Shown piece after piece: positions 3,095 through 3,238 of a DNA stretch of 64,000 nt. Origin of the DNA: Candidatus Microgenomatus sp. GTDB lineage: Bacteria > Patescibacteriota > Microgenomatia > UBA8517. The DNA lies in the NCBI GenBank assembly GCA_020724585.1, contig DYGS01000001.1, positions 422,002 to 486,001 of the forward strand, written 5' to 3'. The notes under the pieces are model-generated. The model was not told the origin of the DNA, ran no database searches, and saw only the letters and a program-made list of their open reading frames with translations. Each line of letters begins with the position of its first letter. Position 1 is the stretch's first letter. The position numbers and the translations under genes are program-made.

Positions 3095-3178
3095 TGTCGA
3101 GGGAGGGACTCGAACCCTCACGGATTATACATCCACTGGCTCTTAAGGCCGGCGTGTCTACCATTTCACCACCTCGAC
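3095..3178 (-). tRNA. tRNA-Leu (anticodon UAA), long variable arm
   Basis: Acceptor GTCGAGG/CCTCGAC, anticodon loop CTTAAGA, long variable arm, T-arm GAGGG-TTCGAGT-CCCTC. Confidence 0.8.
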
Positions 3179-3238
3179 AAATATTTCAAATAGCAAGTGA
3201 AAATGGCCAAGCTTTGCTTACCATTTCACCACCTCGAC
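3159..3238. repeat. 20-bp direct repeat of the tRNA-Leu(UAA) 5' end (3159-3178 and 3219-3238) separated by a 40-nt spacer
   Basis: In tRNA orientation the spacer reads AGCAAAGCTTGGCCA...TATTTGAAATATTT. Confidence 0.85.

What the first reader, a model, noticed from the sequence alone, without database searches (positions are those of the whole stretch)
3159..3238. tRNA genes preceded by a direct duplicate of their own 5' end and a conserved spacer (instance 1: tRNA-Leu UAA)
Seen in sequence: reading in tRNA orientation, the first 20 nt of tRNA-Leu(UAA) (GTCGAGGTGGTGAAATGGTA, up to the GGTA of the D-loop) occur twice as an exact direct repeat, 3219-3238 and 3159-3178. Between them lies AGCAAAGCTTGGCCATTTTCACTTGCTATTTGAAATATTT. 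The same architecture, with the same spacer core AGCAAAGCTTGG(C/T)CA and the same TATTTGAAAT motif in two of the three, recurs at tRNA-Gly(GCC) (19176-19250) and tRNA-Leu(UAG) (24911-24985). A fourth tRNA (His, 659-717) has a 17-bp duplication of the same kind with a different spacer. In two cases the duplicated segment includes 3-6 nt of upstream flank, so each locus looks like a 20-26-bp target duplication around a 23-40-bp insert, leaving an intact tRNA downstream and an orphan 5' fragment upstream. Inference: this could be the footprint of a tiny insertion element or recombination system that targets the D-loop region of tRNA genes, a leader that supplies the tRNA promoter (the spacer ends in a -10-like TATTTGAAAT just before +1 and the duplicate ends in a -35-like TTGGTA), or a decoy 5' half.
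Basis: seen in the sequence. Interest (0 to 1): 0.75.

Follow-up and report, generated by a model that had tools for sequence, protein, structure and literature searches.

The report
Tiny hairpin element inside tRNA genes
The duplicated tRNA starts are real; they mark copies of a roughly 30-base hairpin repeat, apparently undescribed and probably selfish mobile DNA, that is scattered through small-genome Woesebacteria-like bacteria, sits in tRNA genes and in frame in protein genes, and leaves the tRNA intact because the tRNA's own 5' end forms one arm of its hairpin.

Summary
Two independent assemblies carry the Leu(UAA) locus with the same architecture.

The conserved spacer core AGCAAAGCTTGG (the "cap") is the constant 5' part of a dispersed repeat unit. 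The unit is cap + a hairpin (CC...loop...GG) + TA, most often 30 nt long.

Exact-pattern scans found it in 25 genome loci, mostly Woesebacteria/Microgenomates MAGs, and in more than 120 metagenome loci. About half lie at tRNA genes of 24 different anticodons. The rest are intergenic arrays or in-frame, read-through insertions in protein genes.

In TsaD, one genome has two units, a near-identical relative has one, and 14 aligned orthologues have none. Each unit adds exactly 30 nt after a host TA.

The tRNA form has the same architecture. The hairpin's 3' arm is tRNA nt 1-19, followed by U20-A21. The 5' arm is its reverse complement. The old 5' end is left as an orphan copy beside the promoter.

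Best reading: this is the footprint of a miniature palindromic insertion element. It is not a promoter, an intron or an integrase scar. The mobilising enzyme, and how the tRNA-specific arm arises, are unknown. A secondary role as a leader switch is not excluded.

The parts
3219..3238 (-). Orphan copy X1 of tRNA-Leu(UAA) nt 1-20 (GTCGAGGTGGTGAAATGGTA), ending in GGTA
   Evidence: exact copy of 3159-3178
3207..3218 (-). Cap AGCAAAGCTTGG, the constant 5' part of the repeat unit. With the preceding TA it forms a mini-hairpin (AAGC-AAA-GCTT).
   Evidence: the same 12-mer heads the units
3197..3206 (-). X' (CCATTTTCAC), reverse complement of the D-arm part of the tRNA 5' end (GTGAAATGG, with one extra T). 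It is the 5' arm of the element hairpin.
3179..3196 (-). Tail or loop segment (TTGCTATTTGAAATATTT) between X' and the tRNA. It shares TATTTGAAAT with the Gly locus.
   Evidence: No sigma-70-like site was predicted here.
3094..3178 (-). Intact tRNA-Leu(UAA). Its nt 1-19 serve as the 3' arm of the hairpin and U20-A21 as the terminal TA.
   Evidence: Rfam tRNA, 53.8 bits
3246..3275 (-). Promoter-like site (TTTACT-18-TATAGT). Its -10 ends 7 nt upstream of the orphan copy, so the whole module is inferred to be transcribed as a leader.
   Evidence: a consensus match only
19228..19250 (-). Orphan copy X1 of tRNA-Gly(GCC) nt 1-20 plus 3 nt of flank
   Evidence: exact 23-nt repeat
19216..19227 (-). Cap AGCAAAGCTTGG
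19208..19215 (-). X' (TCACTGAA), complementary to TTCAGTG of the D-arm
19196..19207 (-). Tail (TATTTGAAATTT)
19122..19195 (-). Intact tRNA-Gly(GCC), last gene of the Leu-Val-Phe-Gly cluster
24898..24907 (+). Truncated, diverged older copy (GCCGGAGTGG) of the tRNA-Leu(UAG) 5' end. It lies 10 nt after a TATAAT at 24882-24887.
   Evidence: Compare L049.
24908..24936 (+). Orphan copy X1: 8 nt of flank (TTTAACAA) plus tRNA-Leu(UAG) nt 1-21
   Evidence: exact 29-nt repeat
24937..24948 (+). Cap AGCAAAGCTTGG
24949..24956 (+). X' (CCAATTTC), exact complement of GAAATTGG
24965..25047 (+). Intact tRNA-Leu(UAG), preceded by the second TTTAACAA at 24957-24964
701..721 (-). Orphan copy X1 at tRNA-His: upstream flank plus tRNA nt 1-9, ending in GTA (the junction is at U8-A9 | G10)
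688..700 (-). Variant cap AGGGAAACCTTAG. The mini-stem AAGG/CCTT replaces AAGC/GCTT, a change on both sides. The same variant sits at tRNA-His in L007.
680..687 (-). X' (CACTCACC), complementary to GGTGATTG with one mismatch. The pairing continues into 668-679.
   Evidence: -20 kcal/mol, z = -2.9
594..667 (-). Intact tRNA-His(GUG)

Best explanation
Each locus holds a copy of a miniature palindromic repeat element that is dispersed through Woesebacteria/Microgenomates-type (Patescibacteria) genomes.

**The unit.** It is a constant 12-nt cap (AGCAAAGCTTGG), then a hairpin whose stem starts with CC and ends with GG, then TA. The most common length is 30 nt. It lies directly after a host TA.

**The general form.** Where it lands in a protein gene it is a plain 30-nt insertion that is kept in frame and read through.

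**The tRNA form.** The architecture is the same, but the 3' arm of the hairpin is the tRNA's own nt 1-19 followed by U20-A21. The 5' arm (X') is the reverse complement of that segment. A short tail forms the loop.

The functional tRNA therefore starts inside the element. The original 5' end stays upstream as an orphan copy (X1), next to the native promoter. The whole module is probably transcribed as a 50-60-nt hairpin leader that RNase P removes.

**Shown:** the family, its architecture, unit-level gain or loss between near-identical genomes, the in-frame coding insertions, the position of the promoter-like hexamer, and absence of the insert in a syntenic relative.

**Inferred:**
- The element is selfish mobile DNA moved by an unidentified, TA-directed activity. 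This could resemble IS200/IS605 or REP systems, or be recombination of tiny circles or hairpins.
- Only insertions that carry or rebuild the tRNA 5' end survive selection.
- X1 is kept identical to the tRNA by slippage between the direct repeats.
- The cap-proximal part of X' is kept complementary by template switching within the hairpin.
For: That gave 131 non-redundant clusters. Of these, 67 lie just upstream of a same-strand tRNA, covering 24 different anticodons, and 64 do not.

**The unit.** 49 minimal units have very diverse stem sequences that are almost perfectly paired: 299 Watson-Crick pairs, 5 G-T, 0 A-C and 8 other. Lengths run from 27 to 36 nt with a mode of 30. One hairpin subfamily, CCAGTCARRGCMCTGG, occurs at 15 or more unrelated sites.

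**Coding insertions.** The elements are read through as GKQSLA... in the sense orientation or GQALLT in the antisense orientation. In TsaD, L129 has two units and L149 has one, with identical flanks. The 14 other aligned orthologues have none. Each unit adds exactly 30 nt after CATA. The insertion in L031 is absent from its homologues.

**The tRNA form.** X' tracks each tRNA's own D-arm: 84% complementarity over the first 8 nt in 54 loci. In Lys, Gln, Gly, Thr, Ala and Pro loci it often runs on to tRNA nt 1. A similar TCATTnCATTC-like tail then follows at different tRNAs and in different genomes.

**The promoter.** A -10-like hexamer lies within 40 nt upstream of X1 in 30 of 50 loci, most often 11 nt away. 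Uninterrupted tRNA genes show 8-14 nt. Only 7 of 50 loci have such a hexamer between cap and tRNA.

**Which copy is functional.** In L016, L023, L025 and L049 the orphan copy differs from the tRNA within the acceptor-stem 5' strand. In L016 the change breaks a pair with the 3' strand.

**Relatives.** The syntenic locus L021 has no insert at His or Leu(UAA). L049 shares the Leu(UAG) insert.
Against: - No transposase or other enzyme was identified. No protein family is enriched in about 1 Mb of flanking DNA.
- How a tRNA-specific arm is generated at a new tRNA is unexplained.
- Orthologous inserts at Gly(GCC) and Thr(GGU) persist across diverged genomes, although 20-nt direct repeats should delete easily. 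In 65% of loci X1 stays identical to the tRNA while X' decays. This could mean selection for a function.
- All comparative loci were found by exact-cap searches. The apparent invariance of the cap and the GGTA preference are therefore partly ascertainment. First caps of arrays, which are not subject to that bias, show only ..TA.
- In this window the element occurs only at tRNAs.
Confidence: 0.68

Rival explanations
1. The module is a functional three-segment leader switch. X1 and the tRNA 5' end are identical and compete for the antisense segment X'. The X1:cap:X' hairpin forms first and frees the tRNA to fold. If a factor binding the conserved cap blocks it, X' pairs with the tRNA 5' end and stops maturation. 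The module may have been exapted from the repeat element.
For: - The module appears to lie within the transcript.
- X1 equals the tRNA 5' end in 65% of 54 loci, while the acceptor stems differ between genomes.
- The cap mini-stem shows a change on both sides at tRNA-His in two genomes.
- The inserts at Gly(GCC) and Thr(GGU) are old and retained.
- The minimum-free-energy fold of the full precursor pairs X1 with the tRNA 3' acceptor strand, so sequestering X1 would matter.
Against: - The same unit occurs in protein genes in both orientations and in intergenic arrays.
- X' beyond the first 8 nt or so decays in old copies.
- X1 carries changes in the acceptor-stem 5' strand in several loci.
- Only about a quarter of tRNAs carry the module, and the set differs between genomes.
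- Fold z-scores of the leaders are modest, -1.7 to -2.9.
Confidence: 0.13
2. There is no dedicated mobile element. Hairpin-prone sequence at tRNA 5' ends causes recurrent replication slippage and template switching, which creates direct plus inverted duplications. The 12-mer spreads by gene conversion between tRNA genes.
For: - Tandem arrays and copy-number differences between related contigs show that slippage occurs.
- Other tRNAs carry 5' duplications with unrelated hairpin inserts: L075 Ser, L119 Pro, L072 Leu, L110 Gln and L015 Arg.
Against: - An identical 30-nt unit occurs at many unrelated non-tRNA sites, including inside TsaD, where the flanks have no similarity to tRNA.
- The extra TsaD unit in L129 differs from its neighbour at 3 hairpin positions, so it is not a plain tandem copy.
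Confidence: 0.07
3. The sequence between the two copies is an intervening sequence (intron) in the D-loop that is removed from the RNA. The upstream copy would then be the true tRNA 5' end.
For: - In L029 a tRNA-Thr(GGU) is interrupted by four caps with no downstream copy, and ARAGORN finds no intact gene there.
- X1 sits at the native promoter distance.
Against: - Copies inside ORFs add multiples of 3 nt without stop codons and occur in both orientations. That is expected for translated insertions, not for spliced ones.
- X1 is mutated in the acceptor-stem 5' strand in several loci, while the downstream copy always completes a canonical tRNA.
- No Rfam ribozyme or intron family matches.
Confidence: 0.04
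4. The spacer supplies the tRNA promoter, as the reader suggested (TATTTGAAAT as -10, TTGGTA as -35).
For: The spacers are AT-rich, and 7 of 50 loci have a -10-like hexamer between cap and tRNA.
Against: - No sigma-70-like site is predicted in the window's spacers.
- At the Leu loci the promoter-like site or TATAAT lies upstream of the orphan copy. The Gly locus lies inside a tRNA cluster, and its nearest predicted sites are upstream of the neighbouring tRNAs.
- Spacer sequences are not conserved as promoters across loci.
- The hexamer would sit too close to +1.
Confidence: 0.03
5. The duplications are attL/attR-type scars of integrase-borne islands that used the tRNA gene as their attachment site.
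For: Direct repeats of a tRNA segment flank foreign DNA, as at tRNA-borne att sites.
Against: - The insert is only 20-40 bp and has no integrase or cargo.
- The same cap occurs at tRNAs of 24 different anticodons and inside ORFs.
- The duplicated part is the 5' end, up to nt 9 or nt 21.
Confidence: 0.03

Closest known systems
Rickettsia palindromic elements (RPEs)
   Same: Both are lineage-restricted palindromic repeats with no transposase of their own. Both are found in intergenic DNA and also inserted in frame in unrelated housekeeping protein genes, where they are read through as a conserved peptide. RPE properties are taken from the MITE review PMC10969869. The pattern here is shown.
   Different: RPEs are about 100-150 bp and occur in Alphaproteobacteria, with unrelated sequence. 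The unit here is about 30 nt: a 12-nt constant part plus a hairpin of variable sequence. It follows a TA and has a special tRNA form in which the hairpin arm is the tRNA 5' end.
REP/REPIN sequences mobilised by RAYT (Y1/HUH) transposases, and IS200/IS605-type single-strand transposition
   Same: Both involve 20-40-nt imperfect palindromes in many copies. Strand-specific features are present here: a conserved T-G pair and a bulged G in the cap stem, and G-T but no A-C mismatches. Insertion is directly 3' of a short fixed sequence, and the junctions often read GTA|G, which recalls the GTAG head of REPs (from my own knowledge of the REP literature).
   Different: REPs are extragenic, whereas these units also lie inside ORFs and tRNA genes. 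No RAYT or TnpA gene was found or could be searched for genome-wide. The conserved part is a 12-mer beside the hairpin, not the hairpin itself.
TA-targeting MITEs (IS630/Tc1-mariner derivatives such as RUP or Correia-like elements)
   Same: The unit is flanked by TA on both sides. The TsaD filled and part-filled alleles fit a 28-nt element with a TA duplication.
   Different: There are no terminal inverted repeats. The palindrome is internal and next to one end. The size is several-fold smaller than any such MITE that I know of.
Integrative elements that carry a copy of part of a tRNA gene so that integration keeps the gene intact
   Same: The inserted DNA brings a replacement for the displaced tRNA segment, leaving an intact gene and an orphan fragment as direct repeats.
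   Different: Here the 5' segment (9 or 21 nt) is replaced, the insert is tens of bases long, there is no integrase, and an inverted copy of the same segment is also present.

Membership tests
REP/REPIN-RAYT system | Short imperfect palindromes present in many copies per genome | tested here: met
   Hairpin units at more than 130 sites in many genomes. The count per genome is unknown: 4 in this 64-kb window, and up to 5 loci in one MAG.
REP/REPIN-RAYT system | Strictly extragenic location | tested here: not met
   In-frame copies lie inside TsaD, an FAD-oxidoreductase-like ORF, a membrane protein and others, and within tRNA genes.
REP/REPIN-RAYT system | A cognate RAYT (Y1 HUH transposase) gene in the same genome, typically flanked by REPs | not testable with these tools
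   Only 1-14-kb loci were available. No protein family suggestive of a transposase is enriched near the units. Whole genomes could not be scanned.
Rickettsia palindromic elements | Palindromic repeat inserted in frame in functional protein genes and translated as a conserved peptide | tested here: met
   GKQSLA... and GQALLT insertions that add multiples of 3 nt. Orthologues lack them. Translation itself is inferred from the open frame.
Rickettsia palindromic elements | Sequence or size relationship to the RPE families (about 100-150 bp, Rickettsia) | tested here: not met
   The unit is 27-36 nt and its hosts are Patescibacteria MAGs. This is an analogue, not a member.
TA-specific MITE (IS630/Tc1-like) | TA target-site duplication | tested here: inconclusive
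   Units are bounded by TA on both sides, and each adds exactly 30 nt after CATA in TsaD. A 30-nt element that ends in TA, with no duplication, fits equally well.
TA-specific MITE (IS630/Tc1-like) | Terminal inverted repeats matching a parent IS | tested here: not met
   The 5' end is the cap and the 3' end is the hairpin arm. They are not inverted copies of each other.
Non-canonical tRNA intron (D-loop) | Single-copy exons, with the intervening sequence removed from RNA | tested here: not met
   A complete canonical tRNA lies downstream in the window and in 67 other loci. In several loci the upstream copy is mutated. L029 is the one unexplained exception. RNA removal itself cannot be tested with these tools.
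tRNA-att integrative element | Integrase gene and cargo between the direct repeats | tested here: not met
   Only 20-40 bp lie between the repeats.
Known RNA families (Rfam 15) | A match at gathering or permissive threshold in the leader | tested here: not met
   Only the tRNAs match.

The most novel reading that the evidence does not exclude
The 30-nt cap-hairpin unit is the substrate of an undiscovered TA-directed single-strand or hairpin recombination system in Patescibacteria. In that system one hairpin arm is re-templated from the other or from the target. Insertion into a tRNA gene then rebuilds the tRNA 5' end inside the element. The tRNA-linked copies have been co-opted as three-segment leader switches (orphan copy / antisense / tRNA 5' end) that gate tRNA maturation. 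L029-type alleles would mean that a D-loop insertion can be tolerated or removed.
Probability: 0.15. Interest if true: 0.85.

Novelty: new variant of a known kind. Interest (0 to 1): 0.6.

Why it matters
**Annotation.** The finding gives a concrete annotation rule for these genomes. tRNA genes may be preceded by an orphan 5' fragment. Conserved proteins may carry GKQSLA-type 10-residue inserts that are repeat elements, not true protein features.

**Biology of small genomes.** If confirmed, it would show that the very small, streamlined genomes of Woesebacteria-type bacteria carry an active family of extremely small selfish repeats. These repeats enter essential genes such as TsaD and tRNAs without destroying them. 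I know of no bacterial interspersed element this small for which gain and loss of single units has been seen between near-identical genomes.

**Open questions.** The tRNA form is unusual in that the host gene's own 5' end doubles as an arm of the element hairpin. It raises a clear mechanistic question: what enzyme moves a 30-nt unit, and how is the arm templated? It also raises a testable regulatory possibility for tRNA maturation.

Tried and rejected
- **Rfam.** Neither the gathering threshold on the whole window nor the permissive threshold on the Leu(UAA) locus gave anything but tRNAs.
- **Phage origin.** The window's first 8 kb hit the phage collection only through a methyltransferase gene and tRNA-like pieces. 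The cap in IMG/VR gave 3 hits with no hairpin architecture and no tRNA, so they are chance matches.
- **Literature.** A search for the 12-mer found only unrelated primers. A search on CPR, palindromic repeats and tRNA found nothing relevant.
- **Promoter in the spacer.** Not supported.
- **Transposase near the elements.** Clustering 1321 ORFs from all loci gave only housekeeping families. The ORFs between the 76-nt inverted repeats at 5876-7624 do not look like transposases by eye, but were not scanned against profiles.
- **Guide-target pairing.** I considered a group II intron-like rule in which the arm after the cap pairs with the upstream flank. I rejected it as a general rule because the TsaD and other non-tRNA insertions show no complementarity to their upstream flank.
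- **Duplication as a fixed-length target-site duplication.** Rejected. Non-tRNA sites mostly share only 0-9 nt. At tRNA-Ile and tRNA-Gln loci the upstream pseudo-copy runs on past the element to the anticodon arm.
- **Chance matches.** Some metagenome hits are natural coding sequences, for example GQALLT in a protein I recognise as TrpB-like and in a tail-fibre-like protein (L078, L092, L070). I excluded them from interpretation.
- **Naming the organism.** An exact protein look-up returned no names.
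Full report
**1.

The window carries 16 tRNA genes. It encodes ordinary bacterial housekeeping proteins: PBP1, PheT, RecG, BipA and a class II tRNA synthetase. G+C content is about 35%.

At four tRNAs, the first 9-21 nt of the tRNA, with 0-8 nt of upstream flank, occur twice in direct orientation 42-60 nt apart. The tRNAs are Leu(UAA), Gly(GCC), Leu(UAG) and His.

In three of them the upstream copy ends in GGTA and is followed by the exact 12-mer AGCAAAGCTTGG. These are the only three exact copies of the 12-mer in the window. In His the copy ends in TGTA and is followed by AGGGAAACCTTAG.

The Leu(UAA) locus is identical in two independently assembled contigs from other sequencing runs. 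The repeats are therefore real and far beyond chance.

**2.

The bases after the 12-mer are the reverse complement of the end of the duplicated segment:
- CCATTTTCAC pairs with GTGAAATGG (Leu-UAA).
- TCACTGAA pairs with TTCAGTG (Gly).
- CCAATTTC pairs with GAAATTGG (Leu-UAG).
- CACTCACC pairs with GGTGATTG (His).

The 12-mer together with the preceding TA forms a mini-hairpin, AAGC-AAA-GCTT. In His this is AAGG-GAAA-CCTT, a change on both sides of the stem. Predicted folds show a 12-13-bp hairpin in each leader, with z-scores of -1.7 to -2.9.

**3. It is a dispersed family**

An exact-pattern scan of one genome per GTDB species found 25 loci with the same architecture. Those with informative names are Candidatus Woesebacteria, Microgenomates or 'Patescibacteria group' MAGs. 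Nine carry a 'Gammaproteobacteria' label, but two of those that carry the Gly(GCC) insert (L009, L013) show the same architecture as named Patescibacteria loci, so the label is doubtful.

A metagenome scan hit its 120-locus limit.

After removing duplicates there are 131 clusters of caps. Of these, 67 lie just upstream of a same-strand tRNA, covering 24 different anticodons, with Gly(GCC) the most frequent. The other 64 do not. A few of the 64 are chance matches in natural coding sequence.

Scans of viral contigs gave only chance hits. I found no paper describing the motif.

**4. The repeat unit**

Away from tRNAs the cap is followed by a short hairpin and TA, for example:
- AGCAAAGCTTGG-CCGAGTcagACTCGG-TA
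- ...CCAAAGagtaCTTTGG-TA
- ...CCAGTCAAAGCCCTGG-TA

Units occur singly. They also occur in tandem arrays of 2-6 identical units, or as adjacent different units.

In 49 minimal units the stems are very diverse in sequence but almost perfectly paired: 299 Watson-Crick pairs, 5 G-T, 0 A-C and 8 other. Unit length peaks at 30 nt.

The base pair before the cap is TA in nearly all cases. My search patterns required GGTA, so a preference for GGTA cannot be claimed. First caps of arrays, which are free of that bias, are preceded by ATA, GTA or similar.

**5. Coding-region copies and proof of gain or loss**

Several clusters lie inside long ORFs, in either orientation, and are read through in frame. They read GKQSLA... 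in the sense orientation and GQALLT in the antisense orientation.

The clearest case is TsaD:
- L129 carries two units (KQSLASQSTG and KQSLASQGPG).
- Its closest relative, P0002 on L149, carries one unit with identical flanking DNA.
- The 14 other aligned orthologues carry none.

At the DNA level each unit is exactly 30 nt inserted after CATA. The extra unit in L129 differs from its neighbour at three hairpin positions, so it is not a simple tandem copy.

A three-unit insertion in a membrane protein (L031) is absent from ten homologues.

Units in ORFs add multiples of 3 nt, whereas non-coding units are 23-34 nt. This argues that they are translated, not spliced out. It is the behaviour known for Rickettsia palindromic elements (PMC10969869).

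**6. The tRNA form has the same architecture**

In the less decayed tRNA copies, the antisense segment X' runs the full length of tRNA nt 19 to 1. Examples are Lys L003, L051 and L076; Gln L091 and L073; Gly L006, L013 and L086; Thr L043 and L082; Ala L045; and Pro L132.

X' is then followed by an 11-nt tail and then by the tRNA. The tail is similar at different tRNAs and in different genomes: TCGTTACACTC, TCATTTCATTC and TCATAAGATTC.

So cap + [X' - tail - tRNA nt 1-19] + U20-A21 is again cap + hairpin + TA. The tRNA 5' end is the 3' arm. The orphan copy X1 is the sequence that preceded the TA at which the unit sits. A minority of loci use U8-A9 instead: window His, L005 Val and L005 Gly.

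In the window the X' segments are short (8-10 nt). The Leu(UAA) and Gly loci share the motif TATTTGAAAT in their tails.

**7. Which copy is the gene, and where the promoter is**

The downstream copy always completes a canonical tRNA.

In L016, L023, L025 and L049 the upstream copy differs from the tRNA within the acceptor-stem 5' strand. In L016 the change breaks a pair with the 3' strand.

At Leu(UAA) a promoter-like site ends 7 nt upstream of X1. At Leu(UAG) a TATAAT lies upstream of the copies. No sigma-70-like site is predicted in the spacers.

Across 50 tRNA-type loci, a -10-like hexamer lies within 40 nt upstream of X1 in 30, most often 11 nt away. This matches the 8-14 nt seen upstream of +1 in 234 uninterrupted tRNA genes. 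Only 7 loci have such a hexamer between cap and tRNA.

X1 is therefore the original 5' end. The module is most likely transcribed as a leader and removed by RNase P. This last step is inferred.

**8. History**

A syntenic relative, L021 (His, Gly, Pro, Leu-UAA and Arg in the same order), has no insert at His or Leu(UAA). L049 shares the Leu(UAG) insert, but the acceptor part of its X1 has diverged.

The Gly(GCC) insert is present in 13 or more genomes. Their X' and tail sequences are homologous but diverged, while X1 matches each genome's own tRNA.

Over 54 loci, X1 is identical to the tRNA in 65% (mean identity 91%). The first 8 nt of X' are 84% complementary. Over its whole length X' matches 73% in a gapped alignment, with no random baseline computed.

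I attribute the identity of X1 to repeated slippage between the direct repeats; tandem expansions are seen in L001, L014, L056, L058, L076, L086 and L102. I attribute the identity of the cap-proximal part of X' to template switching within the hairpin. Both attributions are inferences.

Selection for a leader function would explain the same pattern and is kept as the main rival.

**9. Mechanism**

*Shown:*
- Single units are gained or lost at a TA.
- The architecture is constant.
- There is no orientation restriction in ORFs.
- No nearby transposase family was found.

*Inferred:* a trans-acting, TA-directed activity moves the units. Candidates are IS200/IS605- or REP-like single-strand transposition, or integration of tiny circles or hairpins through 2-21 nt of identity at the ...GG-TA end. 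Integration of that kind would directly give X1-cap-X'-tail-tRNA.

*Not explained:*
- How a new tRNA-specific arm first arises.
- Why some loci carry longer upstream pseudo-copies that reach the anticodon arm, with the unit in their D-loop (Ile L062, L133, L046; Gln L135).
- The L029 allele, in which tRNA-Thr(GGU) is interrupted without a downstream copy.

**10. Verdict**

The finding is real. It belongs to an apparently undescribed family of miniature palindromic repeats in Patescibacteria.

The target and the extent of the element needed correcting. The promoter reading is not supported.

The family is a new variant of a known kind (REP-, RPE- or MITE-like selfish repeats). Its special feature is the tRNA form, in which the host tRNA's 5' end serves as an arm of the element hairpin.

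Noticed in passing
window 5876-5951 (-) and 7549-7624 (+): A 76-nt inverted repeat pair (98.7% identical) containing a GC-rich hairpin (GCCCCGCAGGGGC). It brackets about 1.6 kb that holds only short, unassigned ORFs (6407-6868, 6926-7207). It may be a small mobile or cassette-like segment.
   Followed up: partly
window 3026-3048 (+) and 19258-19280 (-): A second repeated motif, GGGAG[T/C]GATTGCGTATTTGCTCG; its 17-nt core is exact at both sites, against 0.07 expected. One copy lies just beyond the 3' end of tRNA-Leu(UAA) on the other strand. The other lies between tRNA-Phe and the orphan copy of tRNA-Gly. Its GCTCG...AATCTTT end resembles the X'-end-plus-tail of older units.
   Followed up: partly
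L029 6966-7060 versus L043 (the same locus in another sample): In L029, tRNA-Thr(GGU) nt 1-21 are followed by four caps and then directly by nt 22-76, with no intact downstream copy, and ARAGORN calls no Thr(GGU) there. In L043 there are six caps plus an intact copy. This could be a dead allele, an assembly collapse, or a tolerated or removed D-loop insertion.
   Followed up: partly
L075 tRNA-Ser, L119 tRNA-Pro, L072 tRNA-Leu(CAG), L110 tRNA-Gln, L015 tRNA-Arg(UCG): Other tRNAs carry a duplicated 5' segment of 11-21 nt followed by unrelated small hairpins, for example TCAGCCaaaGGCTGA or AATCttagacGATT. The 'orphan 5' end plus hairpin' pattern is therefore broader than this one cap family.
   Followed up: no
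L062, L133, L046 (tRNA-Ile GAU); L135 (tRNA-Gln); L098 (upstream of tRNA-Leu UAG): Upstream pseudo-copies of tRNAs extend to the anticodon arm (nt 38-43). In the Ile and Gln cases a minimal unit is inserted at the D-loop TA. Downstream lies about 35 nt of spacer and then an intact gene.
   Followed up: no
L145, about 70-100 nt downstream of its cap: A tRNA-Trp-like sequence breaks off after the anticodon stem (GGTCTCC|CCTCCTTCGC...). It may be interrupted by a different kind of insertion or intron.
   Followed up: no
L090/L117 upstream of tRNA-Leu(UAA); also L036, L107, L113, L137: Many non-tRNA units are followed by AAAT, so that the unit's 3' end plus the flank reads TGGTAAAAT, an extended -10-like motif. 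Units may sit in, or contribute to, promoters.
   Followed up: no
window 31869-31934: Two tandem 33-nt copies (88% identical) that are unrelated to the tRNA elements.
   Followed up: no
window, whole: There are 16 tRNA genes in 64 kb, 13 of them on the minus strand, while cumulative GC skew rises across the window. The contig of origin is Ga0246236_1000003 (644 kb), which matches the window at 100%.
   Followed up: partly
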